DNA from: a virus
DNA length: 64,000 bases
Virus record (IMG/VR): IMGVR_UViG_3300045988_148972
Direction: 5' to 3' (one strand)
The position numbers and the translations under genes were made by a program. The stretch's first letter is position 1. Each line of letters begins with the position of its first letter. Shown here in pieces: positions 1 to 14,676 of this stretch. The notes under the pieces are model-generated. The model did not search any database, was not told the DNA's origin, and saw only the letters and a list, made by a program, of their open reading frames with translations.

Positions 1-50
1 GTGGCTGCTGGTGGCTGCTGGTGGCTGCTGGTGGCTGCTGGTGGCTGCTG
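1..50. repeat. Tandem repeat (GTGGCTGCTG)x5, truncated by the window edge
   Basis: Five perfect head-to-tail 10-bp units read directly. The period is not a multiple of 3. Confidence 0.9.
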
Positions 51-80
51 GTGGCGTTCCTCCATGGTGAGGAACGCCAC
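51..80. other. Perfect hairpin with a 12-bp stem and 6-nt loop
   Basis: GTGGCGTTCCTC-CATGGT-GAGGAACGCCAC lies directly after the tandem repeat. No T-run follows it. Confidence 0.8.
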
Positions 81-146
81 CAGAAAGCGCGGTAAATGTA
101 AATAAACCTTTCGTTTTAGATTGAATGGTAAATAACGGTTAAATAA

Positions 147-191
147 ATACAGAAAATAGTACCATATATTTGCACATACAGAAAATAGTAC
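147..191 (+). repeat. Direct repeat ATACAGAAAATAGTAC x2 with a 29-bp period
   Basis: Identical 16-mers at 147-162 and 176-191 in the non-coding leader. Confidence 0.75.
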
Positions 192-480
192 TACCTTTGT
201 AACTGTAAACGATAAGCAAACGTTTACCAAGCCTCCGGGGCTTGCCAAAGCCCGGCAAACGCTCTTTCCAGGTATAAAAAAAGCGGGTATTACAGGAATA
301 CCCGCCCGGGAAAAAGAAAGATAAACTTTCTTCTGTTTTGTAGCAAAAACAAAGATACGTTTTTCTTTCCGTTCCTGAAAATATCCAGAAAGAAAAAACG
401 TTCTTTGAAAAAATACCGTATAAACGTGATCCGCGTTCCGGCTGGTGATCCTGTTCATTATCATAGTTTGATACTTTCCC

Positions 481-501
481 GGCTGTCATAGTTTGACAGC
501 C
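481..501. other. Hairpin GGCTGTCA-TAGTT-TGACAGCC
   Basis: Perfect 8-bp inverted repeat. TCATAGTTTGA also occurs at 461-471. Confidence 0.7.
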
Positions 502-559
502 ACACACGAAAGCAACCGGAACAAAGTACACGCGGCGCGGTTAGTCTGTAACAAATAAT

Positions 560-581
560 CCGTATGAGATAGTAATATATT
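560..581 (+). repeat. Left arm of the inverted repeat flanking the first early gene
   Basis: CCGTATGAGATAG(T)AATATATT. The reverse complement is found at 1349-1369 (13 bp perfect, about 21 bp with one 1-nt indel). Confidence 0.7.
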
Positions 582-666
582 GATAACGGGAAAGGAGCCG
601 AAAGGTAGCCTAACGGGTAAACTATGTTTGCCCGGATCGTGCATAGTCGATACCCGTTACTATATT

Positions 667-691
667 ACTAACTTAAAATTATGGACTTATG
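667..691 (+). promoter_or_regulatory. Early intergenic module copy
   Basis: ACTAACTTAAAATTATGGACTTATG ends on the start codon. Confidence 0.55.
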
Positions 692-1273
692 AAAACAAAT
701 GTATCTAAAGCAAATGTAAAGAAAGAAGCTATCAACGTGTTGACAAACGAAATGTTAAGCCCGTTTGCAGTTTTGAATGCAATCAATAAAAACCGGAAAG
801 ATCCGGCAATTATGGACCTTTTAAACATGTACGGGATAACAAAAAAGCTTGAGCTTTCGGACCTTTGCGGCCTGTATGACTATTCAGAAAGAAACGTTTT
901 TTGCAAGCTTCGCAAAATTACAGATAAAAAGAAGATTGAGTTTTGCGAATACAAACAGGCAAAAATAGGGAACGCTTTTTATGAATATGTACCCATACGT
1001 TTCACTATCCGGGACTTTTTTTATTCTTTGGAATCAGCTTTAAAGCTGAAGAAAGAAACGGAAAGACTTGAGCAAATGTACGCGGATCTCTTTAATAAAG
1101 AGGATAACAAAGCGGAGAAAGCAAAAGCAAAAGCAACTATCAAAGCTGCAAACAAAGCGGAAAAACGCGCTAAACAGATAGCGGAGAAAGCAAAAGAGTT
1201 ACGGGACAAATATAAAGACGTGCCCGAAAACATTCTTTTGCAGCTTGCTGCAGAGTTTTTCAAAGCGGCGTAA
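689..1273 (+). CDS. Hypothetical early protein (194 aa) with a Lys/Ala-rich C-terminal tail
   Basis: ORF preceded by the early module. The tail reads KAEKAKAKATIKAANKAEKRAKQIAEKAKELRDKYK. No family recognised. Confidence 0.6.
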   Translation: MKTNVSKANVKKEAINVLTNEMLSPFAVLNAINKNRKDPAIMDLLNMYGITKKLELSDLCGLYDYSERNVFCKLRKITDKKKIEFCEYKQAKIGNAFYEYVPIRFTIRDFFYSLESALKLKKETERLEQMYADLFNKEDNKAEKAKAKATIKAANKAEKRAKQIAEKAKELRDKYKDVPENILLQLAAEFFKAA

Positions 1274-1931
1274 ACCGCGGCGGGTGTGTATGGAACGAAA
1301 ACACTATAAAAGTGTAAGTACCCGGATCGATACCGGGACACCCACAAAAATATATTCTATCTCATACGGCCGGCGAAAAAGATACCTACCTATGTAATAC
1401 GGCGGCACGTGTGCCACTGTTGCATATAGGGGCGCACGTGTGCGCCTATAGTTATCCAGGCCAAGAGTCTGACGGTATCCAGGGCCGCGAAAATCATAAT
1501 TCATAATTCTATGGCATAACTGTACCCGTATGGGTGCGGTGTGTCCTGCAACGTGTTGAACGGTAAGTCAGGGTGCACCGTGTCCGTATGGATTCATGTA
1601 CGGGTGTGCTATGCCCTGTTCAATCTTGGGTGTATGCCGGAGTAGTTAACCGGAAAAGATCCATACTGTTTTAGCGTATGTATGGAACGGGCTGGGAGTT
1701 ATCCGGGCCTATGGAATCAACGTACCATGCGGACACGTGTGTCTGTATGGCGGTGCGCCTGCAAAGGTCGTCTATGCGAAAGGTGTATCCGTGAATGCTA
1801 TGCAAATAGTGTATCATGGTGCATATAGGCGGGTATGCGTCAACGCAACGAAAACCAGCTTCGGGGGTGGTACGGAAAACCCCTACCTATGTAGTGCTAT
1901 GCGCTTTCGGGCGCATGGCACTTCTTGTATG
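1274..1931. other. Non-coding, relatively G+C-rich region with CAC-GT-GTG palindromes and TATGG-type repeats
   Basis: Only short, compositionally odd ORFs. Palindromes are GGCAC-GT-GTGCC (about 1405), GCGCAC-GT-GTGCGC (about 1433) and GACAC-GT-GTGTC (about 1732). GTATGG/TATGGAAC recurs. Confidence 0.5.
1349..1369 (-). repeat. Right arm of the inverted repeat flanking the first early gene
   Basis: Reverse complement of 560-581 (see that feature). Confidence 0.7.
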
Positions 1932-1954
1932 TATAACTAAAACTTTGAATTATG
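1932..1954 (+). promoter_or_regulatory. Early intergenic module copy (variant)
   Basis: TATAACTAAAACTTTGAATTATG. Confidence 0.45.
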
Positions 1955-2158
1955 GGGAAAAATAGATTCTATCTGGTAATCTGTAATAGATGGAATGGTA
2001 AAAAAGCGAATCTATGCGTAACAAACATTCTGGATCATGCAAAAGCAGTTTGTATGGACTATTCAAACCGGAATGCACGATACAAACAAATATCAGATAT
2101 GCAAGTTTTACATATTCTATCTACAGATTTTGCTTGCCAGAATGCTATCAGACTATGA
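1952..2158 (+). CDS. Hypothetical small protein (68 aa)
   Basis: ORF whose ATG is embedded in an early-module variant. No family recognised. Confidence 0.35.
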   Translation: MGKNRFYLVICNRWNGKKANLCVTNILDHAKAVCMDYSNRNARYKQISDMQVLHILSTDFACQNAIRL

Positions 2159-2219
2159 CCTATCAGGCCGTTCACCTTTACCGGTGTACAGCCTGCAAAC
2201 TTCTTAAATAGTTTGAGTT

Positions 2220-2435
2220 ATGAAAAAGCAAATTAAAGTCATTCTGTGCTGTGTGTTTTTATTCGTGGCTTTGTGTTTTGCCGGTCGTTCCGACTGGAGC
2301 GAACAGGTTATCTATGTAATGCCCAAAAGCGCATACGAAAGTATTAGCGCAAAGCTTGGCGAAGATTGCAGTGACTACGAAATAGCAAAAGAGTACGTAA
2401 AAAACAAATCGTACTACGACGCTATGGAGTATTAA
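2220..2435 (+). CDS. Small secreted/membrane protein (71 aa)
   Basis: N-terminal hydrophobic signal-like segment KVILCCVFLFVALCFAG. Confidence 0.5.
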   Translation: MKKQIKVILCCVFLFVALCFAGRSDWSEQVIYVMPKSAYESISAKLGEDCSDYEIAKEYVKNKSYYDAMEY

Positions 2436-2473
2436 TTCCATGCTGGAGGTACTTTACGGTACTTCCAGACACG

Positions 2474-2502
2474 ATTACTAACTTAAAACTATAGGAATTA
2501 TG
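2474..2502 (+). promoter_or_regulatory. Early intergenic module copy
   Basis: ATTACTAACTTAAAACTATAGGAATTATG. Confidence 0.6.
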
Positions 2503-2865
2503 AACGCAAGTATTAAACTTATTGCAGCTATTGCAGCTATGAATGCTGCCGGATTTACTATTAATGCAGAAACTTTGCAGCCGGTTACATCTGGCTATGC
2601 CGTTGCCATACGTGATACGCAAAACTCGTTTGGGAATGCTGGTATAGCAAACGTATTAAAAGCCGTAAAAGCAGGTAAAGCAAATGCTATCGGCGGATGG
2701 TATGATGATCAGTCTGGATTGTATTACTATGACGCCACACTGGTAGTAAATGACCTTGAAAAAGCCATTCAGTTAGGAATAGAAAATGAACAGCTGGCTA
2801 TCTTTGACCTAAACACTATGACAGAAATTCGTATAAAAGATTCTATCAACACTGCAGCTGCTTAA
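2500..2865 (+). CDS. Hypothetical early protein (121 aa)
   Basis: ORF with the early module upstream. No family recognised. Confidence 0.65.
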   Translation: MNASIKLIAAIAAMNAAGFTINAETLQPVTSGYAVAIRDTQNSFGNAGIANVLKAVKAGKANAIGGWYDDQSGLYYYDATLVVNDLEKAIQLGIENEQLAIFDLNTMTEIRIKDSINTAAA

Positions 2866-2902
2866 ACTTTGGCCGGGATTCTTTACTACCTCCCGGCCAG
2901 CC

Positions 2903-2932
2903 ATCACTAACTTAAAAACTATAGGAATTATG
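2903..2932 (+). promoter_or_regulatory. Early intergenic module copy
   Basis: ATCACTAACTTAAAAACTATAGGAATTATG, preceded by the hairpin GGCCGGGA..TCCCGGCC at 2871-2898. Confidence 0.6.
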
Positions 2933-3493
2933 AGTGCACCTAATTTTTACAATGCAAATGCTAGCAATATCTTTATGGTATCATGCGAAGATGATTTTTC
3001 TTATCAGGATACAAAAGATAATGTATCGTATGAACTAGAAGAACTTGGATGGGATTCTGTGAGAAAATATGACGGAGAAAGGAGCTATCCTGGATGCGTG
3101 TTTTCAGAGAAAACTAAAAAAGCGAGTATCGGTAAATTTTGGGTTGATGTTACTGTAAGAGCTATCATCAGGTCCGGTTATTTTTCAGATGCAAATCTGG
3201 ATTGGGATATAGAGATAGACGGCACAGAATACGACCTTGAATGCTATGATGAATCCGAAGCTCTTGAACAGCTTGAGTCAAGCTATGAATATAGTGAAAA
3301 TCCCGGATTCTGTAAGATGCAAGCTAAGAACCTTGTAAAAAATGTAGAAAAAGCCGTATCTGAACTAACTGAAGAACTTGAATCTGTATATGAAAAATAC
3401 TCTGAAAGACTTCTATGTTTGGGTATATTCTCTAATGGTGAAGCTATTTATGGAAAGGCTAACAACCCTATAAACCAGATTAAAGCTTCCTGA
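2930..3493 (+). CDS. Hypothetical acidic early protein (187 aa)
   Basis: ORF with the early module. Strongly acidic. No family recognised. Confidence 0.65.
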   Translation: MSAPNFYNANASNIFMVSCEDDFSYQDTKDNVSYELEELGWDSVRKYDGERSYPGCVFSEKTKKASIGKFWVDVTVRAIIRSGYFSDANLDWDIEIDGTEYDLECYDESEALEQLESSYEYSENPGFCKMQAKNLVKNVEKAVSELTEELESVYEKYSERLLCLGIFSNGEAIYGKANNPINQIKAS

Positions 3494-3530
3494 TTTACGG
3501 CCGTTCCGGTTTATTCCGAAGCGGCCGGCA

Positions 3531-3557
3531 TTGTCTAACTTAAACTATGGAATTATG
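3531..3557 (+). promoter_or_regulatory. Early intergenic module copy
   Basis: TTGTCTAACTTAAACTATGGAATTATG. Confidence 0.6.
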
Positions 3558-3929
3558 AGAACAATAAACCTTATCACAGAAGACAGTACAGAATTTTACG
3601 AAATATGTAAGGATAACGGCTGGACCGACTGTGAGTATGAAGACTTCGATGTATTGGCTTTCTTTGAAGGAGATCCGGATATGATACATATAAATGGTCA
3701 GGTAGGCTATTTCTGGTATCATATTAAAACCGATACCATATTCTATTATTTCGATGAATGGGGCTCCAGAGTAGGAAGCATATTAAGGGACTTTTATAAA
3801 AAGCGCCTGCATAAAGAAAGATGGGAATTTGATGAACCATGGGAATATTTTGATACGCACAATTGTATAGCGTATCGAGGTGGAAGCGGTTATCTATATA
3901 GCATGTTCCCTTTGCGTATAGCATCGTAA
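3555..3929 (+). CDS. Hypothetical early protein (124 aa)
   Basis: Start moved to the ATG of GGAATTATG, in frame within track ORF 3531-3929. Confidence 0.6.
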   Translation: MRTINLITEDSTEFYEICKDNGWTDCEYEDFDVLAFFEGDPDMIHINGQVGYFWYHIKTDTIFYYFDEWGSRVGSILRDFYKKRLHKERWEFDEPWEYFDTHNCIAYRGGSGYLYSMFPLRIAS

Positions 3930-3966
3930 CAAAAAGCCTGTGCGGATTGAATCTGCATAGGCTTTC

Positions 3967-3995
3967 TTATTACTACTTAAAACTCTGGAATTATG
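3967..3995 (+). promoter_or_regulatory. Early intergenic module copy
   Basis: TTATTACTACTTAAAACTCTGGAATTATG. Confidence 0.55.
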
Positions 3996-4406
3996 GATAA
4001 AAACAGGAATTGGTTTGGCGTAGATGCCAACAATGAATCATCGTTATTTGATTACGGTTTTCTTATGCGTTACCATGGCAATGATGAATATCAGGTGATA
4101 TATCTTGCAGGCTATGAAGGAGACAAACCTTTATACGCATACGGATGGTTCAATCCGAAAGAATGGGAAAAATATTTTATTGACACCATGGGAGAAAATG
4201 AATATCCGGATGCAGCCAGAATAGCTTCTACATGCTGTATGGAAAATGGGAAAGAATGGCTGGATGACGTAAAAAACTTTCCTCAATATATGTTGAGTGA
4301 CATACTTTCCTATTATGGATATGATGGCGTATTCGGAGGAAATTATTATGGGGATTTTTATACGGTGCCACAAATCCGGAAACGTCTGAATCGTGCGCTT
4401 TCCTGA
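3993..4406 (+). CDS. Hypothetical early protein (137 aa)
   Basis: ORF with the early module. Aromatic-rich. No family recognised. Confidence 0.65.
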   Translation: MDKNRNWFGVDANNESSLFDYGFLMRYHGNDEYQVIYLAGYEGDKPLYAYGWFNPKEWEKYFIDTMGENEYPDAARIASTCCMENGKEWLDDVKNFPQYMLSDILSYYGYDGVFGGNYYGDFYTVPQIRKRLNRALS

Positions 4407-4446
4407 CTATTACCCGGTTCCGCCTTGCAGCGGTTCCGGATGCTAT

Positions 4447-4472
4447 CGTATAACTAAATTATCGGAATTATG
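4447..4472 (+). promoter_or_regulatory. Early intergenic module copy
   Basis: CGTATAACTAAATTATCGGAATTATG. Confidence 0.55.
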
Positions 4473-4718
4473 ACACAAGAAACTTTTAATCTGCTGGATC
4501 ACTTTTCATGCGAAGGGTTTGATAATTGTTGTTCAGGGTTCGCTCAGGATGTAAATACAAAAGAGTATTTCGGAACGGAAGAAGATGTAAATATCGAAGG
4601 AATGTATCTGTATGTATATCAAAAAAAGGATGACTTTTTCTCCCACATAAAAAAGGAACCGGAATACACCTTTGATATGGAAGGCAAAGAGAATCTTTTT
4701 CTATTCAAGCTTGAGTGA
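4470..4718 (+). CDS. Hypothetical early protein (82 aa)
   Basis: ORF with the early module. Confidence 0.6.
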   Translation: MTQETFNLLDHFSCEGFDNCCSGFAQDVNTKEYFGTEEDVNIEGMYLYVYQKKDDFFSHIKKEPEYTFDMEGKENLFLFKLE

Positions 4719-4760
4719 TTCATACAGGCAGCTGCTGATTATCCGGTAGCCGCCTGCTTT

Positions 4761-4789
4761 ATGTCTAACTTAAAAACAAAAGGATTATG
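4761..4789 (+). promoter_or_regulatory. Early intergenic module copy
   Basis: ATGTCTAACTTAAAAACAAAAGGATTATG. Confidence 0.6.
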
Positions 4790-4942
4790 GGAAAATATCA
4801 TTACGAATACTATCTGGTATGTGTAGACTTATGTAACGGAGGAGCAAAACGCGGACCGTACCGTTCTTTTCATAACGCGAAATTTGACAGTCATTTTTTG
4901 AGTGGAATATGGCATTTGAGGAAATTCAGAGTCTACGAATGA
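4787..4942 (+). CDS. Hypothetical small early protein (51 aa), below the ORF-track cutoff
   Basis: Translated by hand as MGKYHYEYYLVCVDLCNGGAKRGPYRSFHNAKFDSHFLSGIWHLRKFRVYE. It is bracketed by two early modules. Confidence 0.5.
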   Translation: MGKYHYEYYLVCVDLCNGGAKRGPYRSFHNAKFDSHFLSGIWHLRKFRVYE

Positions 4943-4983
4943 TAATCAGCCGGTAGCAGCCTGAACTGCTTCTGGCTTCTTTT

Positions 4984-5012
4984 ATGTCTAACTTAAAAAC
5001 AAAGGAATTATG
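4984..5012 (+). promoter_or_regulatory. Early intergenic module copy
   Basis: ATGTCTAACTTAAAAACAAAGGAATTATG. Confidence 0.6.
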
Positions 5013-5552
5013 GAAAAATCAAAATTGTTGAAAGCACGTGTTTATGTAGGAACATACAAGGAATATAACAACGGTTCATTGTTCGGACAATGGATGAATC
5101 TGGCAGACTATCAATCTAAGGAAGAATTTTTGGATGCCTGCAAAGATTTACATAGTGACGAAGACGAACCGGAGTTTATGTATCAGGACTACTCAAACAT
5201 ACCAGACGGTATGATAAACGAAAGCTATATCGACCCGCGAATATTTGGTATCATTCAGTGTGCAAAAGATATGGATGACACAGAGACAGAAGCATTCTTT
5301 ACGTTTCTTGATATGTACTTTGTGGATTATTCTTATATCAAAGACGGTGAAGAGCTCGTAGAAAAGTTCAGAGATAAATACGCAGGGCAATTTGATTCTG
5401 AAGAAGCGTTTGCCACCTATATGGCGGAAATGAAATGGCCAGAAGAACTTCAAACTGAGTTTGGTCAGTATTTCGACTACGAAGCATATTCCAGGACATT
5501 GCTTACCAGCGGATACCGCCATCAGGGTGATTTCTACTTCTGTGTAGCTTAA
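5010..5552 (+). CDS. ardA: ArdA-type antirestriction protein (180 aa)
   Basis: RVYVGTYKEYNNGSLFGQWMNL at the N-terminus and YFDYEAYSRTLLTSGYRHQGDFYF at the C-terminus parallel Tn916 ArdA (VYIANLGKYNEGELVGAWF ... YIDYQAYGRDL...HGIFE). Highly acidic. Confidence 0.8.
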   Translation: MEKSKLLKARVYVGTYKEYNNGSLFGQWMNLADYQSKEEFLDACKDLHSDEDEPEFMYQDYSNIPDGMINESYIDPRIFGIIQCAKDMDDTETEAFFTFLDMYFVDYSYIKDGEELVEKFRDKYAGQFDSEEAFATYMAEMKWPEELQTEFGQYFDYEAYSRTLLTSGYRHQGDFYFCVA

Positions 5553-5588
5553 ACATTCCGGCAGGTTTTTGAGAATCTGCCGGGGTCT

Positions 5589-5618
5589 ATTGTCTAACTT
5601 AAAATTTATAGAATTATG
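5589..5618 (+). promoter_or_regulatory. Early intergenic module copy
   Basis: ATTGTCTAACTTAAAATTTATAGAATTATG. Confidence 0.6.
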
Positions 5619-6428
5619 ATGACATTAGAAGATTTTAAAAAGTCAAACATGTGTTGGAATGGTAACGGATATTACACTACCGAAAAAGAATGGAACAGTA
5701 ACTATCAGATAGCAAATGATGTGGAAAAAGAGTTTTTTACACACTATGATAAATCACTTATGCAGCCGCAGAAAGGAGATATGATAGAGTTTGTAAATTA
5801 CAATAGCTTTTACAATCATGCGCTGGTTGAGAGTGTAGATAAATTCGGATTGATGTATGTATGTGAAAGCGGAAGCTCATGGACAAACGGTAAATCATTC
5901 TCAACTTCAGGTGGCGCATTTACTCATATTCATTCTTCAAACTTTGAGTTTGTTGGATATGAAGACCGCGTATTCTGGACCTGGGGTTGTTATGGAGCAG
6001 GTGCCCAACAAGGTATTTACTTCACTATAAAAGTGAAAAAGTTCCGCCAGAAAGAAATGAATCTTGTGCCTATGCACGAAATATATTTCAACAGTCCGTA
6101 CTACATGAGAGAAAGACATTCAAAGGTAGTAATTATGCAGGATTTCATGTACATATTTAAAGAGTTCTATACTATCAAGGCATTTAAAGAATGGGCTGGA
6201 TATGTAGGACTTACTTACAGAAAAGATGATTCAGGTCAGTATTATGCAAATCAGTTTCTAAAAAGCGCATATTTCTGGAAGCTTGAAGAACTTCCTGAAG
6301 GATGCAAGCCTGTAGAAGACATGTGCAACGGTAGCAAAGTAAGATGCTTTGCTCATAACGATGGCAAAACGCTTACTATCTATCGCCCGAATCCAAATGC
6401 AAAAGACGTTTACATTCCCATGAGTTAA
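5616..6428 (+). CDS. Hypothetical early protein (270 aa)
   Basis: ORF with the early module. No family recognised. Confidence 0.7.
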   Translation: MMTLEDFKKSNMCWNGNGYYTTEKEWNSNYQIANDVEKEFFTHYDKSLMQPQKGDMIEFVNYNSFYNHALVESVDKFGLMYVCESGSSWTNGKSFSTSGGAFTHIHSSNFEFVGYEDRVFWTWGCYGAGAQQGIYFTIKVKKFRQKEMNLVPMHEIYFNSPYYMRERHSKVVIMQDFMYIFKEFYTIKAFKEWAGYVGLTYRKDDSGQYYANQFLKSAYFWKLEELPEGCKPVEDMCNGSKVRCFAHNDGKTLTIYRPNPNAKDVYIPMS

Positions 6429-6465
6429 CCAAATGCTGGACGGAGAGTGAAACTCCTCCGGCTGC

Positions 6466-6495
6466 AATGTCTAACTATAAAACGATTGAATTATG
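6466..6495 (+). promoter_or_regulatory. Early intergenic module copy
   Basis: AATGTCTAACTATAAAACGATTGAATTATG, preceded by a hairpin with apex GGAG-AGTGAAA-CTCC. Confidence 0.6.
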
Positions 6496-6843
6496 GAAAC
6501 TACAATGTACAAAGATAAACTGAGAAAATATCACCTGCAGCAGTATTGTCAGGAACTTCGTCTTGAACAACTCAAAATCTGGGACAGGTACGACGAAGAC
6601 CTTAAAAACAAAAAAGAGGATATAGCTTTCTTCTGGTACCCCGGATGCGTACTATGTTGCGACAGATCAGTAGAAGATTTTCGTTCAAGGGACTATTTTG
6701 AAGTTGCTCGTATATTTCACTCCGGTGAGATAGAATACAATTTGGACTATCAGGAAGTTTCGGAAGAAACCAAGAAGAAAATTGAAGAAGCAGCTGAGAG
6801 AATAAAACAAAAGAACAAAGGCAGATGCAGTTCTGATTATTAA
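6493..6843 (+). CDS. Hypothetical early protein (116 aa)
   Basis: ORF with the early module. Confidence 0.65.
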   Translation: METTMYKDKLRKYHLQQYCQELRLEQLKIWDRYDEDLKNKKEDIAFFWYPGCVLCCDRSVEDFRSRDYFEVARIFHSGEIEYNLDYQEVSEETKKKIEEAAERIKQKNKGRCSSDY

Positions 6844-6877
6844 CAGCGTATGGGAGTCTGAAACTCCCTACGGCTGG

Positions 6878-6908
6878 CATTGTCTAACTATAAAACGAAT
6901 GAATTATG
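6878..6908 (+). promoter_or_regulatory. Early intergenic module copy
   Basis: CATTGTCTAACTATAAAACGAATGAATTATG. Confidence 0.6.
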
Positions 6909-7100
6909 AAAGTAAATGAATTGATTAAAATCTTGCAGAAAGCAAAGCCTGATGCGGAAATTACAGCTACTGTAAACCTTAGTAATAATCCTACGGATAA
7001 TGAAGAGGAGGACATCGAGTGGTTATCAGTTGATGTATTCCATGAAGACTGTATAGATGAATACGATTTTGTTGAACTCTTTATCTCTAAAACAAAGTAA
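6906..7100 (+). CDS. Hypothetical early protein (64 aa)
   Basis: ORF with the early module. Acidic. Confidence 0.55.
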   Translation: MKVNELIKILQKAKPDAEITATVNLSNNPTDNEEEDIEWLSVDVFHEDCIDEYDFVELFISKTK

Positions 7101-7103
7101 GCC

Positions 7104-7295
7104 ATGCACGTATCAGAATTAAACAAAGACCAGTTGACAGAACTCAAACAGAGTTATCTCATGCAACACAATGAAGAAGTGGGAGAGGGTACTTCTTATG
7201 ACGAACTTGCCAGAGCTGACATTATTATCTCTGATGAAATGATATACGAAGCTTATTCAGGTATCAATTTCACAGAAGATGATTTTTCCTGCTAA
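7104..7295 (+). CDS. Hypothetical early protein (63 aa)
   Basis: ORF 3 nt after the previous stop. It has no module of its own, so it is probably co-transcribed. Confidence 0.5.
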   Translation: MHVSELNKDQLTELKQSYLMQHNEEVGEGTSYDELARADIIISDEMIYEAYSGINFTEDDFSC

Positions 7296-7331
7296 GAAAA
7301 GCCGGACGGGGATTGATACTTCTCCGGCTAC

Positions 7332-7362
7332 GATGTCTAACTATTAAAACAAATGAATTATG
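7332..7362 (+). promoter_or_regulatory. Early intergenic module copy
   Basis: GATGTCTAACTATTAAAACAAATGAATTATG. Confidence 0.6.
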
Positions 7363-7992
7363 AGATTAGAAAAAGGTACAGTAGAAGATTTAGCAGCAAG
7401 TGGTTACGAATTGCGTCCTACATTTTATGATTATGAAACCTATCATGAAAAGGGATTTGAATACTCTTATAACTACTATAGTATAGAGTCGTGGAGAAGT
7501 TGGCATCCAGACCTATCAGACGAAGAGATAGAGACGAAGAGAAGGGAAGATGCTAAAAGATTTGCCGATAACAGCTATTCCAAAGGCCGGTGGTTTGGTG
7601 ACTCCACAGAATTATATGTATTCAAAGGATATGATATAGTATGCGTAATTAAGAATCTTCCTAAATATGCGGAAACCAAAAAAGAATATATACGCAAACG
7701 TATAGAAAAAGCGGAGAAAGCATATAATAGTTATTACGGTGGGTTCTGCAAAAAGATTCAAGAACTTTTGAGAAAAGAACAGGTTGAGCATGGATTCTGG
7801 ATTTATCCAACTACATACGGTATTGGAGTATGGGTATTCTTTAATTTTCGTGCATCGGAATGTATTGATATAGTAACAAACTTATTGAAAAAGCACAATA
7901 TAGAATACTATAATGAATACTCTGATGCCTACTATGTTTATCGTTTTAAGATTAGCAAGAAGGAAGCAAACAGACTGAAGTTAGCTGCTTAA
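7360..7992 (+). CDS. Hypothetical early protein (210 aa)
   Basis: ORF with the early module. Confidence 0.7.
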   Translation: MRLEKGTVEDLAASGYELRPTFYDYETYHEKGFEYSYNYYSIESWRSWHPDLSDEEIETKRREDAKRFADNSYSKGRWFGDSTELYVFKGYDIVCVIKNLPKYAETKKEYIRKRIEKAEKAYNSYYGGFCKKIQELLRKEQVEHGFWIYPTTYGIGVWVFFNFRASECIDIVTNLLKKHNIEYYNEYSDAYYVYRFKISKKEANRLKLAA

Positions 7993-8030
7993 CACAAAGC
8001 CGGACGGAGAGTGAAACTCCTCCGGCTACG

Positions 8031-8059
8031 ATGTCTAACTATAAAAACAAGGAATTATG
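8031..8059 (+). promoter_or_regulatory. Early intergenic module copy
   Basis: ATGTCTAACTATAAAAACAAGGAATTATG, preceded by the hairpin at 7998-8027 (AGCCGGA-C-GGAG-AGTGAAA-CTCC-TCCGGCT). Confidence 0.6.
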
Positions 8060-8317
8060 GAAAATCAAAAGTCAGGATTATTGGTAGTTGTCTTTGATAA
8101 TGATGGGAAAGGTGGCATTTCAGAATGGTTTGAATACTCACGAGAAAAACCTGACGAAGTTCTAAATCTGCTTAAGTATATGCGTAAAAAATATAACGCA
8201 TATTGGTGGGGAGAATATAAGATGTTTCGTCAAGACAGAAACATAACACTTACACAATCGACAAAAGAAAAACCAGATTATGAAGGTAAGTTCAGAAAAA
8301 TAAGACCTCGTAAATGA
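8057..8317 (+). CDS. Hypothetical early protein (86 aa)
   Basis: ORF with the early module. Confidence 0.6.
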   Translation: MENQKSGLLVVVFDNDGKGGISEWFEYSREKPDEVLNLLKYMRKKYNAYWWGEYKMFRQDRNITLTQSTKEKPDYEGKFRKIRPRK

Positions 8318-8362
8318 AATTAGCTGCTATCCGGTCTAAGCATACAATCTTAGCCCGGTACT

Positions 8363-8393
8363 ATCGTCTAACTTTTAAAACAATGGAATTATG
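8363..8393 (+). promoter_or_regulatory. Early intergenic module copy
   Basis: ATCGTCTAACTTTTAAAACAATGGAATTATG. Confidence 0.6.
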
Positions 8394-8837
8394 AGAACAG
8401 TATCATTAGAAAAACAGATTGCAGGTATTATCAATGACGGTCAGGTACTCCGTAGCGAAGAATACAGAATGTATGGCAAAACAGTAGAAATAAAAACCAT
8501 AAAGGAAGGAAACTTCAAGTGTACAGTTCCAATGGAATATATGAAAGACTTGCTGGCCAATGCACGCCGCATGTCCCGTAAAAAGCCTGAAAAATATCCG
8601 GTTCCTCAAACACAAAACATTCTGGCCTTCCTTTCAAATCATCGTGAAGTGATTCCTTATTATGTGAAAATGATCAAAGAAAAAAGTGCTTCATGGTTCA
8701 AACAACAGATAAGAAAAAACTTCCCTGAAAAAGCAGAAAGCATTTTAAAAGAAGCAACATACGGAAGCGATTCTGAACTTAGACACGTTCTTATCACAAT
8801 GCCACGTGCATGGGGTAAATATATAAATGAAGAATAA
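8391..8837 (+). CDS. Hypothetical early protein (148 aa)
   Basis: ORF with the early module. Confidence 0.65.
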   Translation: MRTVSLEKQIAGIINDGQVLRSEEYRMYGKTVEIKTIKEGNFKCTVPMEYMKDLLANARRMSRKKPEKYPVPQTQNILAFLSNHREVIPYYVKMIKEKSASWFKQQIRKNFPEKAESILKEATYGSDSELRHVLITMPRAWGKYINEE

Positions 8838-8880
8838 CTGCATTGTTATTTCCGGTATACATTGTCGGTATACCGGGAAC

Positions 8881-8909
8881 TATTGTCTAACTAAAATTTT
8901 GGAATTATG
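8881..8909 (+). promoter_or_regulatory. Early intergenic module copy
   Basis: TATTGTCTAACTAAAATTTTGGAATTATG, preceded by the 9-bp-stem hairpin at 8852-8876. Confidence 0.6.
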
Positions 8910-9359
8910 AAAGTAGAAAAGAATTTAATCGAGAAAGTAGCTAATGGTGAAACTGTTTTGAAAGGTGAAGCTGTGGAAATTGCAAAAAGAGTTATTGAAG
9001 AAGGTCTTATTACTAAATTCAAGAAATTTGCATTCTTTTATCAAGGTGACGAAAAGGAGATATATGATGTTCAGGATTGCATAATAGACTTCAGGTTACA
9101 CGGAGCGGAGCTAAATATAAACTATCTAAATCCAAATAAAGGGAAGATGACAATATTTGGAATAACATTAGAAGAATCTCTTAAAAGACTATTTGATGCG
9201 TTCACAGACAACAACAAGCTTATGAATGACCTTGAAGACAGACTGTTTACGGTAAATGGCATTAAAGGGCAGTTCAAGCTCTCGTATACCGCACTTCATT
9301 ATTGCTTTGCAAAAGGTCGTATCACCGAAAAACAATGTCTTGACATGATGCGTATCTAA
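8907..9359 (+). CDS. Hypothetical early protein (150 aa)
   Basis: ORF with the early module. Confidence 0.65.
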   Translation: MKVEKNLIEKVANGETVLKGEAVEIAKRVIEEGLITKFKKFAFFYQGDEKEIYDVQDCIIDFRLHGAELNINYLNPNKGKMTIFGITLEESLKRLFDAFTDNNKLMNDLEDRLFTVNGIKGQFKLSYTALHYCFAKGRITEKQCLDMMRI

Positions 9360-9400
9360 TCTACTTCCGGATTCAGGTTTACATCCTGATCCGGAATCGA

Positions 9401-9428
9401 CGTGTAACTATAAAATTTTGGAATTATG
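9401..9428 (+). promoter_or_regulatory. Early intergenic module copy
   Basis: CGTGTAACTATAAAATTTTGGAATTATG. Confidence 0.55.
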
Positions 9429-9632
9429 AGCAAAACAAAATTCAATAAAAACGAAACAATAAGCATATTAGGTCTTACAAAAGACGAGTATAATGCTTTA
9501 CGCAGTGTTATGTATTCATCTAAAAGATGTTTTGACGAACCGGACGAAGATCAAGGTTATTATAGTAACGATGACTTCGTTTGTCTTCTGTCAAAAGAAG
9601 AAAAAGAAGCATTAGATAATTTGGAAATATAA
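9426..9632 (+). CDS. Hypothetical early protein (68 aa)
   Basis: ORF with the early module. Confidence 0.6.
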   Translation: MSKTKFNKNETISILGLTKDEYNALRSVMYSSKRCFDEPDEDQGYYSNDDFVCLLSKEEKEALDNLEI

Positions 9633-9670
9633 TTCCATCTACCGCTGTGAAGCGGAAGTTTTTAAGTTAG
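9631..9670 (-). promoter_or_regulatory. Inverted early-module copy (reads on the minus strand)
   Basis: The plus strand reads AATTCCAT..CCGCTGTGAAGCGG..TTTTTAAGTTAG, which is the reverse complement of CTAACTTAAAAA..ATGGAATT. It points antisense into 9426-9632. Confidence 0.5.
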
Positions 9671-9735
9671 TAATCCAGCCGTAGGAAAAGTAATTTTCCT
9701 TCGGCTACTTGAGAAAAATAACTATATTTACAACG

Positions 9736-9754
9736 TCAAACTTTTAAAATTATG
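9736..9754 (+). promoter_or_regulatory. Early module variant
   Basis: TCAAACTTTTAAAATTATG. Confidence 0.4.
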
Positions 9755-10006
9755 GGAAATACATTTGAGCCATTCTCTTTTTATGGGGAAATAAACAGTG
9801 ATACACTTGAAGAGTATCACTACCAGGCATTATGCAAAGCAAAGGAAATTCACGGAGAAGTGAAAGACATATCATGCGATTCTCTTACTCTTGATATCAT
9901 GGTAGGAGAGGAGTTTAAGAAATATGATTTAGGTATGTACGACGATAAGGTAGCCATGCAATCGGAAACCGGCGAAGTAATTGTCGTATGTGACACTATC
10001 AAATAA
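9752..10006 (+). CDS. Hypothetical early protein (84 aa)
   Basis: ORF. Acidic. Weak module variant upstream. Confidence 0.55.
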   Translation: MGNTFEPFSFYGEINSDTLEEYHYQALCKAKEIHGEVKDISCDSLTLDIMVGEEFKKYDLGMYDDKVAMQSETGEVIVVCDTIK

Positions 10007-10033
10007 TTCCATAGGTTAGTTTTTAGTTAGAAC
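10005..10033 (-). promoter_or_regulatory. Inverted early-module copy
   Basis: The plus strand reads AATTCCATAGGTTAGTTTTTAGTTAGAAC. The minus strand reads GTTCTAACTAAAAACTAACCTATGGAATT. Confidence 0.45.
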
Positions 10034-10114
10034 AAGTCCGGCGGAAGTGATACTCTTTCGGACTACAAATGTTTAATCAAATCGTGAGGCACACGGAAAA
10101 AACTGTTTAGAGTC

Positions 10115-10354
10115 ATGAAAGCTAGTTTTGAGGATGTAGTAAAATCAACAGGAAAGAATTTTGAATGCGAACAGTCCATAAGCGGATACTACCGTCTTGT
10201 ATGTGATGGGAAAATAATTTTAGACGACAGCGCTTGTGAAGATGTAAACGGAACTGAAGAGGAAGCGAAAGATTTCTTTGCGGAATACCTGCTTGAATAT
10301 GAAGTTCCGGAAGATAAGAAAGAATACCGTTGCGGATTATGTTTTCTGAAATGA
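10115..10354 (+). CDS. Hypothetical early protein (79 aa)
   Basis: ORF with an acidic, protein-like composition. It is fully overlapped by an antisense ORF that carries an inverted module. Confidence 0.5.
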   Translation: MKASFEDVVKSTGKNFECEQSISGYYRLVCDGKIILDDSACEDVNGTEEEAKDFFAEYLLEYEVPEDKKEYRCGLCFLK

Positions 10355-10361
10355 TAATAAT

Positions 10362-10400
10362 CATAATTCCCTGCCGCTGTGAAGCGGAATTTTAAGTTAG
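10362..10400 (-). promoter_or_regulatory. Inverted early-module copy (complete)
   Basis: The minus strand reads AACTAACTTAAAA-TTCCGCTTCACAGCGGCAG-GGAATTATG. Its ATG opens the minus ORF 10122-10364. Confidence 0.5.
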
Positions 10401-10460
10401 TTCAAAGGCCGGCGGAGAGTGATACTCCGCCAGCCTTCTTCATTTTTAAATTATAAACGT

Positions 10461-10688
10461 ATGAACAAGAAAAGAAGAAAAGAAATCGAAGACGTAAGAG
10501 AGTCGTTGAGAAAAGTATATGAGGAACTTGAAGAGCTCAAAGATGAAGAACAAGAAGCCTTTGACAACCTCCCTGAGTCTTTCCAGGAATCAGAAAAAGG
10601 AGAGCGGATGCAAGAGTACATAGAATATATGGAAGAAGCCCTTTCAAGCATTGAAGAATCAATTGAAAGTTTAAACGAAATAGAGTAA
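10461..10688 (+). CDS. Hypothetical acidic coiled-coil protein (75 aa)
   Basis: Start placed at the first ATG (MNKKRRKEIEDV...) within track ORF 10419-10688. Confidence 0.5.
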   Translation: MNKKRRKEIEDVRESLRKVYEELEELKDEEQEAFDNLPESFQESEKGERMQEYIEYMEEALSSIEESIESLNEIE

Positions 10689-10692
10689 AATT

Positions 10693-11112
10693 ATGGATGG
10701 AACAACAATTTTCTCAGTTATCTGCGTCCTGCTTTTCGCAGGCTATCTGGTGGTAAGATACCGCCGCTACAACATTCATCGTGCACTGAATCTGCCGAAA
10801 AATCCTCCGCGTTATCCGGACAGCGCCATTAAATCGGCAAAGGAAATAGGTAAATTCCTGTTTACCCGTGCTAAGATTTGCGGAGTAAATTTCATGACGG
10901 CCGACAAGGATACGGGCGTTTCCTACGAAGCTATCCGCGACATCTCTCGGGGGAAAGACACGCACATAGTGAACTTCCTGCGCATGGCTCACTTTCTGGG
11001 ATGTGAAGTGGTGATACGGCAAATAGGTACGACCGACACCGAAGACCCGGCAACTACTCCGCAAGTGTATGAAGAAATGATTGCCAACATTGAAGAGGAA
11101 AACAGAAGATAA
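10693..11112 (+). CDS. Membrane-anchored helix-turn-helix protein (139 aa)
   Basis: N-terminal TM segment IFSVICVLLFAGYLVV. XRE-like HTH VSYEAIRDISRGKDTHIVNFLRMAHFLGCEVVI. Confidence 0.55.
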   Translation: MDGTTIFSVICVLLFAGYLVVRYRRYNIHRALNLPKNPPRYPDSAIKSAKEIGKFLFTRAKICGVNFMTADKDTGVSYEAIRDISRGKDTHIVNFLRMAHFLGCEVVIRQIGTTDTEDPATTPQVYEEMIANIEEENRR

Positions 11113-11144
11113 AAAAACATACACTTCAATTAATTGATATTCAG

Positions 11145-11175
11145 CACCGGTTCAGGCGTGAATCGGTGGTTTTTT
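11145..11175 (+). terminator. Rho-independent terminator
   Basis: A 10-bp stem (CACCGGTTCA / TGAATCGGTG, one G-U pair) with loop GGCG, followed by GGTTTTTT. Confidence 0.7.
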
Positions 11176-11228
11176 GAAATTTAGATACAATTTTAATGCG
11201 ATTCTTGTTTAAAATTGTTACATTTGCC
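11176..11228 (+). promoter_or_regulatory. Middle-type promoter motif, copy 1 of 3
   Basis: GAAATTTAGATACAATTTTAATGCGATTCTTGTTTAAAATTGTTACATTTGCC ends in a TAnnTTTG -7 box (11219-11226). Confidence 0.6.
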
Positions 11229-11636
11229 ATGCAAAAGAAAAACAATGAATTAACCATTAAAGCAGGGCAAATGATTTACACTAACCAACGACGCAGGGAG
11301 CTTAACAAAGCTCTGTTTTCTAAACTGCAAAATCCCCTTATTACTACGCTCGCCGAGGAAGGCGACTCACACATTTTTCTTGAACATCTGCCAAAGGATG
11401 CCGAGGAAATTCCCACAGCCGACTGCCTGATGCGTAATGTGCCGCGAGGTGTGTTGCCGTGGAACCAGGTGATGCCGGTATTCATTCCTGCTATGTATAA
11501 CGGGAAGAAAGCATATCTGGTGAACTACGTGAACAATTCACAGAAGAGCATACAGACGGCACTCGAAAAACTGAACACCTTCGGAATGTATTACATTCCC
11601 GGCATGACGCTGGAGAAAGGAGTGGATTATGGATGA
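11229..11636 (+). CDS. Hypothetical protein (135 aa)
   Basis: First ATG lies 3 nt after the -7 box. The upstream part of track ORF 11196-11636 lies inside the promoter motif. Confidence 0.6.
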   Translation: MQKKNNELTIKAGQMIYTNQRRRELNKALFSKLQNPLITTLAEEGDSHIFLEHLPKDAEEIPTADCLMRNVPRGVLPWNQVMPVFIPAMYNGKKAYLVNYVNNSQKSIQTALEKLNTFGMYYIPGMTLEKGVDYG

Positions 11637-11742
11637 ATTTAAGAAGATGGCCATGCAGGGATGCCTTATCCTGATAGGCCTGGTTCTGGTAGTAGGATTC
11701 TGCCTGTATGGAATCATTAGTCTTGTAAAACAATTTATCTGA
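11629..11742 (+). CDS. Small membrane protein (37 aa)
   Basis: Translated by hand as MDEFKKMAMQGCLILIGLVLVVGFCLYGIISLVKQFI. One TM helix. Overlaps the previous stop. Confidence 0.4.
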   Translation: MDEFKKMAMQGCLILIGLVLVVGFCLYGIISLVKQFI

Positions 11743-11749
11743 AAACGGC

Positions 11750-12553: not shown

Positions 12554-12554
12554 C

Positions 12555-12839: not shown

Positions 12840-12845
12840 AAGATT

Positions 12846-13430: not shown

Positions 13431-13434
13431 TGGT

Positions 13435-14666: not shown

Positions 14667-14676
14667 ACCTTAGTCT

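What the first reader, a model, noticed from the sequence alone, without database searches (positions are those of the whole stretch)
667..9754. Array of about 18 hairpin + conserved-box + ORF cassettes forming the early region
At least 18 plus-strand genes between 689 and 9754 are each preceded by the same short module, whose last three bases are the start codon. The consensus is (A)TGTCTAAC-T(T/A)-AAAA, then 4-9 variable nt, then GGAATTATG. Copies end at 691, 1954, 2502, 2932, 3557, 3995, 4472, 4789, 5012, 5618, 6495, 6908, 7362, 8059, 8393, 8909, 9428 and 9754. Most are preceded within about 10 nt by a CCGG-anchored stem-loop just after the previous stop (for example 2871-2898, 7998-8027, 8852-8876). 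Several of those hairpins share an apical sequence GGAG-AGTGA(A/T)A-CTCC, which is more conservation than a simple terminator needs. The box resembles the Bacteroidota -7 element (TAACTTAA here, against TAACTTTG in this phage's late promoters). It lies only about 10-15 nt from the ATG. It could therefore be a promoter giving near-leaderless mRNAs, an RNA-processing site, or a translation signal. The encoded proteins are small, mostly acidic and unassignable, apart from ArdA.
Basis: seen in the sequence. Interest (0 to 1): 0.7.

Follow-up and report, generated by a model that had tools for sequence, protein, structure and literature searches.

The report
Shuffling early-gene cassettes with shared leader
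A roughly 105-110 kb gut phage of Phocaeicola/Bacteroides separates about 17 small early (anti-defence) genes with one standard spacer, a hairpin followed by a fixed leader that ends in the start codon. Related phages swap genes at these spacers, much like the "PeSL" cassettes of T4-type phages, but the conserved box does not look like a host promoter.

Summary
Seventeen plus-strand genes (689-9428) start with TTGTCTAACT + A-run + N3-6 + GGAATTATG; the 18th copy (9754) is degenerate. Sixteen are preceded by a stable hairpin without a U-tract.

The module is confined to the early region in more than 40 related viral contigs and two sister lineages. Breaks in homology between relatives fall at the modules, so it acts as a PeSL-like linker for cassette shuffling.

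The box is not a Bacteroidota -7 promoter element. AACT is invariant, G-5 is 0% and none of 219 modules has TTTG.

A conserved consensus host promoter (169-199) lies upstream of the array and a conserved canonical terminator (11145-11175) closes it. The A-run sits at -12 to -14 and A at -3, which are the known Bacteroidota translation determinants.

My best reading (about 45%) is one long early operon. The hairpins would protect and insulate mRNA segments, and the module would be a shared 5' leader and translation start, possibly also a processing site. One promoter per cassette is the main rival (about 30%).

New here: 3-5 reverse copies per genome sit between stop codons and hairpins of the distal early genes. 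They carry a GNRA-capped mini-hairpin that folds better in plus-strand RNA. Their role is unexplained.

The parts
169..199 (+). Consensus host-type promoter (TTTG-N19-TACCTTTG) upstream of the whole early array. Predicted start is near 204, followed by two covarying hairpins (about 206-262).
   Evidence: site 192, flagged with a -33. TACCTTTG is kept in 9 of 10 relatives (TACCTTCG in L028) and the hairpins show compensatory changes; also present in the distant lineage L153.
667..691 (+). Forward module 1 (ACTAACTTAAAATTATGGACTTATG). It has no strong hairpin and starts the first early gene, 689-1273.
1893..1954 (+). Hairpin 1893-1922 plus forward module (box 1932-1943, ATG 1952)
2441..2502 (+). 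Hairpin 2441-2471 plus forward module (box 2477-2488, ATG 2500)
2869..2932 (+). Hairpin 2869-2900 plus forward module (box 2906-2917, ATG 2930)
3498..3557 (+). Hairpin 3498-3527 plus forward module (box 3534-3545, ATG 3555)
3933..3995 (+). Hairpin 3933-3965 plus forward module with a degenerate box (TACTACTTAAAA), ATG 3993
4414..4472 (+). Hairpin 4414-4439 plus forward module (TATAACTAAATT), ATG 4470
4725..4789 (+). Hairpin 4725-4756 plus forward module (box 4764-4775; GGATTATG), ATG 4787
4948..5012 (+). Hairpin 4948-4977 (followed by TTCTTTTATG) plus forward module (box 4987-4998), ATG 5010 of ArdA
5555..5618 (+). Hairpin 5555-5586 plus forward module (box 5593-5604), ATG 5616 of the DUF4121 protein
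6435..6495 (+). Hairpin 6435-6462 (apex GGAGAGTGAAACTCC) plus forward module (box 6470-6481), ATG 6493
6844..6908 (+). Hairpin 6844-6876 plus forward module (box 6883-6894), ATG 6906
7300..7362 (+). Hairpin 7300-7329 plus forward module (box 7336-7347), ATG 7360
7998..8059 (+). Hairpin 7998-8027 plus forward module (box 8034-8045), ATG 8057
8331..8393 (+). Hairpin 8331-8358 plus forward module (box 8367-8378), ATG 8391
8849..8909 (+). Hairpin 8849-8879 plus forward module (box 8886-8897), ATG 8907
9365..9428 (+). Hairpin 9365-9396 plus the last forward module (box 9403-9414), ATG 9426
9628..9706 (-). Reverse module R1. The box is at 9671-9660 on the minus strand and GGAATTATA at 9636-9628. The mini-hairpin 9642-9655 reads CCGCTGTGAAGCGG on the plus strand. 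A plus-oriented big hairpin follows at 9677-9706. R1 lies between the stop codon of gene 9426-9632 and that hairpin.
10002..10064 (-). Reverse module R2. The box is at 10031-10020 and GGAATTATT at 10010-10002. It has no ATG and no mini-hairpin. A big hairpin follows at 10035-10064.
10362..10437 (-). Reverse module R3. The box is at 10401-10390, the mini-hairpin at 10374-10387 and GGAATTATG at 10370-10362. A big hairpin follows at 10405-10437. The minus-strand ORF that begins here is not coding.
11145..11175 (+). Canonical intrinsic terminator (CACCGGTTCAGGCGTGAATCGGTGG followed by TTTTTT) that closes the early region. It lies just before the first middle promoter (11187-11226).
   Evidence: conserved in 23 of 26 unique relatives

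Best explanation
**What it is.** The array is a set of standardised gene cassettes in the early (host-takeover and anti-defence) region of a Phocaeicola/Bacteroides phage.

**Proposed mechanism.**
1. Host RNA polymerase starts at the consensus promoter at 169-199. It reads rightwards through the whole array to the canonical terminator at 11145-11175 (inferred).
2. Each G+C-rich hairpin follows a stop codon and belongs to the upstream gene. It lacks a U-tract, so it would not stop transcription efficiently. It would protect the 3' end of the upstream mRNA segment and keep upstream sequence from pairing with the next start site (inferred).
3. The conserved leader follows 7-11 nt later: UUGUCUAACU, an A-run at -12 to -14, a G-free spacer, then GGAAUU-AUG. 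It is a shared translation start region for a host without Shine-Dalgarno pairing. UUGUCUAACU is possibly also the site where the long transcript is cut into stable units (inferred).
4. Because the same roughly 35-nt leader flanks every cassette, recombination within it lets related phages gain, lose and exchange single genes without disturbing their neighbours. This step is shown by comparison.

The reverse copies behind the distal early genes belong to the same system, but their role is unknown.
For: **Shown**
- The module is specific to the early region and to the plus strand. There are 251 forward copies at -10 to -3 kb from the exonuclease gene in 32 genomes, none elsewhere and none on the minus strand.
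- 259 unique modules were collected.
- The cassettes form a mosaic: 45 protein clusters, 44 different orders, and 20 of 34 clusters with at least 2 different direct successors.
- Blastn homology blocks between the window and L007, L033, L069 and L010 begin or end at modules: 4776, 5588-5618, 6495, 6916, 7298-7300, 8059, 8363, 8413 and 8882.
- The same hairpin is joined to different leaders, and the same leader to different hairpins.
- The box does not fit the host promoter.
- The array is bracketed by a conserved consensus promoter and a conserved canonical terminator. No canonical plus-strand promoter or strong terminator lies between them.
- A at -12 and -13 carries 1.9 bits, A at -14 carries 1.4 bits and A at -3 carries 1.8 bits. 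These are the positions that favour translation in Bacteroidota.
- Gene 2220 has the A-run but neither hairpin nor TAACT. The A-run is therefore a general start signal, while TAACT travels with the hairpin.
- 165 different hairpin sequences all fold, with mean energy -15.8 kcal/mol. Their GNRA-type loops favour the plus strand, 22 against 7.
- No phage RNA polymerase was seen. The tape-measure N-terminus is coiled coil without a DxDxD motif.

**Established knowledge used**
- PeSL cassettes of T4-type phages (PMC2839356).
Against: - No transcript data exist; every transcription and processing step is inferred.
- The strict conservation of TAACT (98-100%) has no known role in Bacteroidota translation, and no nuclease with that specificity is known to me.
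- The same TAACT core occurs in 3 of the phage's 4 late -7 elements (TAACTTTG). That hints at polymerase recognition.
- An 11-kb operon would include a 485-nt leader and a 680-nt untranslated stretch (1274-1951), and it would have to escape Rho.
- ArdA would be made only after about 5 kb of transcription.
- The hairpin before ArdA is followed by UUCUUUUAUG and may terminate.
- Predicted accessibility of the leader (0.57) is no better than for other genes (0.52).
- The reverse copies are not explained by this model alone.
Confidence: 0.45

Rival explanations
1. Each module is its own early promoter, as in a true PeSL. The TAACT box acts as a -7/-10-type element used without a -33 element. Transcription would start about 12-13 nt downstream and give 6-9-nt leaders (GGAAUUAUG). 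The hairpins would attenuate read-through. The polymerase could be the host enzyme, or the host enzyme redirected by an immediate-early phage factor such as the first gene's product. The reverse copies would be antisense promoters facing the array.
For: - The TAACT core is shared with the phage's late -7 elements.
- Arrays of strongly conserved early promoters are the norm in large lytic phages, and PeSLs have exactly this layout.
- No conserved canonical promoter lies directly upstream of the first gene: TATGTTTG at 623 is TATGTTCT in most relatives.
- TAACT co-occurs with hairpins, which mark unit boundaries.
- The reverse copies keep the box, and 2 of the 3 in the window have no start codon.
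- On the minus strand their mini-hairpin begins 13-15 nt after the T of TAAC, about where a transcript would start.
- The hairpin before ArdA has a U-rich tail.
Against: - None of 219 boxes has TTTG. G-5 is 0% and T-7 is only 63%, while -10 and -9 are invariant. This is close to the inverse of the sigma-70-family pattern.
- No -33 element is present.
- The nearly invariant A-run at -12 to -14 would lie upstream of the transcript.
- The mini-hairpin of the reverse copies folds better in plus-strand RNA. Three internal G.U pairs exist only there, and the loops are GNRA only there.
- The big hairpin next to the reverse copies keeps its plus orientation.
- No phage polymerase or sigma factor was found. 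The model of the first gene's product has no fold match, and the tape-measure N-terminus is coiled coil.
Confidence: 0.3
2. The box is a DNA site for a phage or host protein, like the asymmetric 'stoperators' of Cluster A mycobacteriophages. The protein would bind every cassette junction to switch the early region off (or on) together.
For: - A short, asymmetric core conserved at 98-100% (TAACT, with TTGTC before it) is repeated about 20 times per genome in intergenic positions.
- Copies exist in both orientations.
- The middle promoters of this phage carry a separate palindromic operator, so protein-based control is in use.
- The authors who described the Cluster K start-associated sequences considered the same idea for those repeats.
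Against: - No candidate binding protein was identified.
- The fixed distance to the ATG and the conserved GGAATT next to it are not needed for an operator.
- The strand bias of the forward copies is complete, 251 to 0.
Confidence: 0.08
3. The modules have no expression function beyond an ordinary start context. They would be kept alike only by frequent recombination or gene conversion among copies, as selfish or second-order selected linkers.
For: - Crossovers inside the box are seen.
- Breakpoints fall at modules.
Against: - The same consensus persists in lineages whose flanking proteins are only 45-60% identical.
- The invariant core is only 5-10 nt long, which is too short to be maintained by homology-driven conversion alone.
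- Geometry to the hairpin and to the ATG is constrained.
Confidence: 0.05

Closest known systems
PeSL (promoter-early stem-loop) cassettes of T4-type phages (Arbiol et al. 2010, PMC2839356; Comeau et al. 2014, PMC4122927)
   Same: [quoted passage not shown]
- It contains a stem-loop plus a conserved expression signal.
- It is concentrated in a hyperplastic region full of small genes of unknown function.
- Insertions, deletions and replacements between related phages have their junctions in the repeat.
   Different: - PeSLs carry near-consensus host sigma-70 promoters and a Shine-Dalgarno site, and their stem-loops were shown to terminate. Here the box fails the host promoter consensus and there is no Shine-Dalgarno site.
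- The hairpins here lack U-tracts.
- The hairpin here lies upstream of the box rather than between promoter elements.
- Reverse copies with their own mini-hairpin exist here.
- Mini-circles were not tested here.
Start-associated sequences (SAS) and extended SAS of Cluster K mycobacteriophages (Pope et al. 2011, PMC3203893)
   Same: - A short asymmetric repeat lies immediately upstream of the start codons of a subset of genes (11-19 copies).
- Nearly all copies share one orientation, with rare reverse copies.
- About half are preceded by an inverted repeat.
- It is conserved beyond what ribosome binding needs.
- Its function is still unknown.
   Different: - SAS contains an AGGAG Shine-Dalgarno core, whereas here the host does not use Shine-Dalgarno pairing.
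- The ESAS inverted repeats are conserved in sequence and do not covary. Here the hairpins differ in sequence but all fold.
- SAS copies are scattered through the genome rather than forming one early array.
- No shuffling role was described for SAS.
Phage T7 early operon (host promoters A1-A3, RNase III sites between genes, terminator TE); stated from my own knowledge
   Same: [quoted passage not shown]
- Hairpins lie between early genes and end up as protective 3' ends.
- An anti-restriction gene is among the early genes.
   Different: - T7 sites are long irregular duplexes cut by RNase III. Here stems average 13.5 pairs, and a conserved single-stranded box follows them.
- T7 has 5 sites, not 17.
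- T7 has no cassette shuffling.
Bacteroidota primary-sigma promoter (-33 TTTG / -7 TAnnTTTG)
   Same: The box begins with TA and has T at -8. The phage's own late -7 elements read TAACTTTG.
   Different: TTTG is absent in all 219 modules and no -33 element is present. The positions that are free in host promoters are the invariant ones here.

Membership tests
PeSL cassettes (T4-type phages) | Repeated composite intergenic element spanning stop codon to ATG, with a stem-loop and a conserved expression signal | tested here: met
PeSL cassettes (T4-type phages) | Contains a strong promoter matching the host primary-sigma consensus | tested here: not met
   no TTTG in 219 modules, G-5 at 0%, no -33 element. 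Promoter activity itself is not testable here.
PeSL cassettes (T4-type phages) | The stem-loop acts as a terminator or attenuator | not testable with these tools
   The hairpins are stable but lack the U-tract that this phage's clear terminators have.
PeSL cassettes (T4-type phages) | Lies in a hyperplastic region; recombination between copies causes gain, loss or replacement of the flanked genes | tested here: met
   Mini-circles were not tested.
SAS/ESAS (Cluster K mycobacteriophages) | Asymmetric repeat directly upstream of start codons, one orientation, more than 10 copies | tested here: met
SAS/ESAS (Cluster K mycobacteriophages) | Repeat contains a Shine-Dalgarno core that pairs with the 16S rRNA 3' end | tested here: not met
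   The leader is A/U-rich and has no G between the box and GGAATT. GGA lies only 3 nt from the ATG.
SAS/ESAS (Cluster K mycobacteriophages) | Upstream inverted repeats conserved in sequence rather than in pairing | tested here: not met
   165 different hairpin sequences all fold.
Bacteroidota sigma-ABfr promoter | -7 element with T-12, A-11, T-8, T-7, T-6 and G-5 nearly invariant | tested here: not met
Bacteroidota sigma-ABfr promoter | -33 TTTG located 19-21 nt upstream of the -7 element | tested here: not met
   That position falls in the G+C-rich 3' arm of the hairpin.
Intrinsic (Rho-independent) terminator | G+C-rich hairpin immediately followed by a U-tract | tested here: not met
   The hairpin is present. 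Under the stricter scan, only the hairpin at 4948-4977 is followed by a T-rich tail. Canonical terminators are found at 11145, 27022/27051, 33053 and 35158/35187.
RNase III processing sites (T7 early type) | About 20 bp or more of duplex between cistrons of one transcript | tested here: inconclusive
   The mean is 13.5 pairs. Whether there is a single transcript is inferred, not shown.
Integron attC cassettes | Adjacent integron integrase plus imperfect attC palindromes as recombination sites | tested here: not met
   No integrase lies near the array. The junctions lie in the single-stranded leader, not in the hairpin.

The most novel reading that the evidence does not exclude
The forward modules would be RNA leaders, and the 3-5 reverse copies would be built-in 'anti-leaders'. 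The reverse copies are transcribed last, as part of the 3' untranslated regions of the distal early genes. They are complementary to both conserved halves of every forward leader (CUAACUUAAAA and GGAAUUAU). A GNRA-capped mini-hairpin replaces the variable spacer. By pairing with the roughly 17 early leaders, they would shut off early translation together, or trigger cleavage. This would be a timer written into the operon, in a phylum that lacks Hfq- and Shine-Dalgarno-based control.
Probability: 0.12. Interest if true: 0.8.

Novelty: new variant of a known kind. Interest (0 to 1): 0.55.

Why it matters
- **Gene expression in Bacteroidota.** How genes are started and punctuated in Bacteroidota, which lack Shine-Dalgarno pairing, is poorly understood. 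A natural, highly conserved and portable unit of hairpin plus leader, used about 17 times per genome by an abundant gut phage family, is a ready test object. It may also be a useful expression or insulation part for engineering Bacteroides.
- **Anti-defence genes.** The cassettes are a fast-evolving store of early genes (ArdA, DUF4121 and many unknowns). The modules show how such genes are exchanged between gut phages and give a simple way to find them.
- **Reach of the PeSL principle.** If the box proves to be a promoter, it defines a new non-consensus promoter class in Bacteroidota. If it does not, it shows that PeSL-like shuffling does not need a promoter.

Tried and rejected
- **Public collections.** Megablast of 1-12 kb found nothing in the INPHARED phage collection or in PLSDB plasmids. 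tblastn with a late protein found nothing. blastn with a 43-nt module gave only chance hits. No cultured relative was found.
- **Known RNA families.** Rfam gave only sub-threshold hits. No tRNAs were found.
- **Sigma-70-type scan.** It found no more promoter-like sites than in shuffles, 33 against 34.
- **Bacterial genomes.** The scan gave 31 single hits, mostly at gene starts of Bacteroidota, some downstream of canonical promoters. This is near the chance level and shows no arrays.
- **Covariation.** Alifold on one hairpin family found no compensatory pairs, because the family is too closely related. The argument for structure rests on the many unrelated hairpins instead.
- **Minus-strand ORFs at the reverse copies.** They are not coding (5 synonymous, 26 non-synonymous and 2 stop changes, against 15, 19 and 0 for the plus frame).
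- **First gene as a sigma factor or regulator.** Pfam, PHROGs and PDB sequence searches were empty. The AlphaFold model (pLDDT 79) has no fold match.
- **Virion RNA polymerase fused to the tape measure.** The N-terminal 800 residues are repetitive coiled coil without a DxDxD motif.
- **Leader accessibility.** It is no different from other genes.
- **Anchoring of the A-run.** It is not anchored better to the ATG than to TAAC.
- **Conjugative leading-region reading.** Dropped, because the relatives are viral contigs with tail and lysis genes.
- **Sister lineages.** They carry the same module, so forward/reverse covariation could not be tested.

Full report
**1.

Reading 1-10500 and the 45 nt before each listed copy end shows 17 clear modules. 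Each ends in the ATG of a plus-strand ORF. The consensus is (A/T)TTGTCTAACT, then (T/A)1-3, an A-run, N3-6 and GGAATTATG.
- The 18th copy (9754) is degenerate.
- The pattern TAACT-N11-16-AWTTATG occurs 10 times against 0.24 expected. All matches are on the plus strand between 2479 and 9428.
- Sixteen modules are preceded by a hairpin.
- All 19 intergenic hairpins of the region fold at -10.6 to -22 kcal/mol, with z-scores of -2.2 to -7.0.
- Two genes inside the array (2220, 7104) have neither hairpin nor box.

**2. What the element is part of**

The window belongs to a family of gut viral contigs of about 100-120 kb.
- An exact module pattern finds 76 stretches in IMG/VR.
- The exonuclease gene at 12846 finds 41 related loci.
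- NCBI copies of that protein are labelled Phocaeicola plebeius.
- The 1905-residue tail protein resembles Bacteroides phage tail fibres.
- Amidase, head-fibre and tape-measure genes follow the window.
- There is no match in the INPHARED phage collection or in PLSDB plasmids.

**3. Anatomy across relatives**

259 unique modules share TTGTCTAACT. A is nearly invariant at -12, -13 and -14 relative to the ATG, and GGAATT abuts the ATG.
- TAAC-to-ATG spacing is 19-22 nt.
- The hairpin ends 7-11 nt before TAACT in 85% of modules, and 165 different hairpin sequences are used.
- In 32 genomes the forward module occurs 251 times. All copies lie 3-10 kb upstream of the exonuclease gene, and none is on the minus strand.
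- Two sister lineages keep the same module. In one the exonuclease is 60% identical. In the other the first gene is 45% identical and the backbone is different, with an integrase.

**4. Cassette shuffling (shown by comparison)**

Genes that follow modules fall into 45 clusters.
- 44 different gene orders occur, on a common backbone.
- 20 of 34 clusters have at least two different direct successors.
- Homology blocks between the window and four relatives start or stop at modules. For example, L069 lacks 6495-7298 exactly, and the two flanks overlap in the module.
- For one downstream gene, the upstream hairpin changes with the upstream gene. The same hairpin is also found joined to different box-spacer variants, which places crossovers inside the box.

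This is the behaviour described for PeSL cassettes of T4-type phages.

**5. Is the box a promoter?**

The reference comes from Flavobacterium johnsoniae. There the -7 element has T-12, A-11, T-8, T-7, T-6 and G-5 nearly invariant, -10 and -9 are free, and the start lies 4-5 nt downstream.

I anchored 219 modules only on the start context and an upstream hairpin. In the -7 register they show:

| Position | Observed |
|---|---|
| -12 | T 98% |
| -11 | A 100% |
| -10 | A 100% |
| -9 | C 99% |
| -8 | T 100% |
| -7 | T 63% |
| -6 | A 73% |
| -5 | A 84%, G 0% |

- None of the 219 has TTTG, and no -33 TTTG is present.
- The phage does use canonical elements elsewhere. A late class reads TTTTTGTCCTTCA-N19-TAACTTTG at 33055, 44889, 45973 and 60342. 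A middle class has a palindrome followed by TACATTTG at 11187 and 14929, and on the minus strand at 44857.
- I found no sign of a phage RNA polymerase.
- The first gene's product could not be assigned.

**6. Evidence for one early transcription unit**

- A consensus promoter (TTTG-N19-TACCTTTG, 169-199) is conserved in 9 of 10 aligned relatives (TACCTTCG in L028) and in the distant lineage L153.
- A canonical terminator at 11145-11175 is conserved in 23 of 26 unique relatives.
- No canonical plus-strand promoter or strong plus-strand terminator lies between them.
- True terminators elsewhere in the window have T5-7 tails.
- The A-run at -12 to -14 and A at -3 are the positions that favour translation in Bacteroidota. 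Gene 2220 has the A-run without TAACT.

Taken together, the A-run and GGAATT look like a translation start region that must be transcribed. That places any transcript start upstream of the point predicted if TAACT were a -7 element.

**7. Reverse copies (new)**

Three copies lie on the minus strand. Each sits between the stop codon of a plus-strand gene and that gene's hairpin.
- Relatives carry 3-5 each, and there are 63-66 unique versions.
- On the plus strand they read (C)ATAATT(T)CC, N3-5, CCGCTGTGAAGCGG, AAGTTTT(T)AAGTTAG, N6-8 and then the big hairpin.
- The plus-strand genes are the coding ones.
- The mini-hairpin is more stable as plus-strand RNA. Its loops are GUGA, GCGA or GUAA, and three internal G.U pairs exist only on that strand.
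- The neighbouring big hairpin keeps its plus orientation.
- As RNA, the reverse copies are complementary to the forward leaders: -14 to -17 kcal/mol, against -6.5 to -8 for shuffled controls. This is by construction.

Their role is open. They could be antisense promoters, weak terminators or anti-leaders.

**8. Verdict**

- It is well supported that the module is a boundary element for cassette shuffling.
- For expression, I favour a long early operon with hairpin punctuation and a shared leader or translation start, at about 0.45.
- One promoter per cassette is at about 0.30.
- A protein-binding operator is at about 0.08.
- A purely recombination-maintained linker is at about 0.05.
- The closest known systems are PeSLs and the start-associated sequences of Cluster K mycobacteriophages. 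It is a full member of neither.

Noticed in passing
window 1-83: There are five tandem copies of GTGGCTGCTG, followed by a hairpin (GGCGTTCCTCC...GGAACGCC). Several related contigs continue further left, so this is not a genome end.
   Followed up: partly
window 204-270: Directly downstream of the conserved promoter at 169-199 lie two hairpins with compensatory changes among relatives (GTAAACG/CGTTTAC against GTAATC/GATTAC; CCGGG/CCCGG against ATCAG/CTGAT). They may be a small RNA or a structured start of the early transcript.
   Followed up: partly
window 281-357 (-) and 1303-1352 (-): There are two tiny minus-strand units flanking the first early gene. Each has a canonical -7 element (TATCTTTG at 357-350; TATTTTTG at 1352-1345) followed within about 40-70 nt by a hairpin plus T-run. 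They are candidate small antisense RNAs.
   Followed up: no
window 1274-1951: A 680-nt non-coding stretch lies between the first and second early genes. It is full of short palindromes around CACGTGTG and repeated CCGTATGG/CTATG motifs. It is also present in the distant lineage L153. Its function is unknown; an origin, a packaging site or a structured RNA are possibilities.
   Followed up: no
window 11187-11226, 14929-14968, 44818-44857 (-): A middle-type promoter class: the 32-nt palindrome ACAATTTTAATGCGATT..GTTTAAAATTGT lies directly before a canonical -7 element. The ATG follows only 2 nt after the element at the two plus-strand sites, which suggests leaderless or near-leaderless mRNA.
   Followed up: no
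window 33055-33094, 44889-44928, 45973-46012, 60342-60381: A late-type promoter class: TTTTTGTCCTTCA, then 19 nt, then TAACTTTG or TATCTTTG, then 17-18 nt to the ATG.
   Followed up: no
window 10077-10117; L149 5800-5848, 6490-6532; L153 16960-16991: A second conserved leader, CGTGAGGCACACGG(G)AAAAACTG...ATG, precedes several distal early genes that lack the forward module.
   Followed up: no
window 47019-52736 and 57613-59085: A reverse transcriptase gene lies about 5 kb downstream of the 1905-residue tail-fibre-like gene. This suggests a diversity-generating retroelement that targets host recognition.
   Followed up: no
window 27620-29083 (-), 31415-32227 (-): A protein with a DnaA N-terminal domain and a ParA-like partition protein are encoded here. 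Close copies of the element also sit as contigs of about 101-171 kb in Phocaeicola plebeius assemblies. Together these suggest plasmid-like carriage.
   Followed up: no
L153 (76.8-kb ENA contig), 10001-18910: The same early array, including the first gene and both forward and reverse modules, sits in a different backbone. That backbone carries KilA-N/ANT, HU, a tyrosine integrase and an IS605-type TnpB. The array therefore travels between elements.
   Followed up: partly
window 1-64000: CCGG occurs 274 times against about 115 expected from base composition. It is concentrated in the intergenic hairpins of the early region. The phage encodes several DNA methyltransferases (13435, 22390).
   Followed up: no
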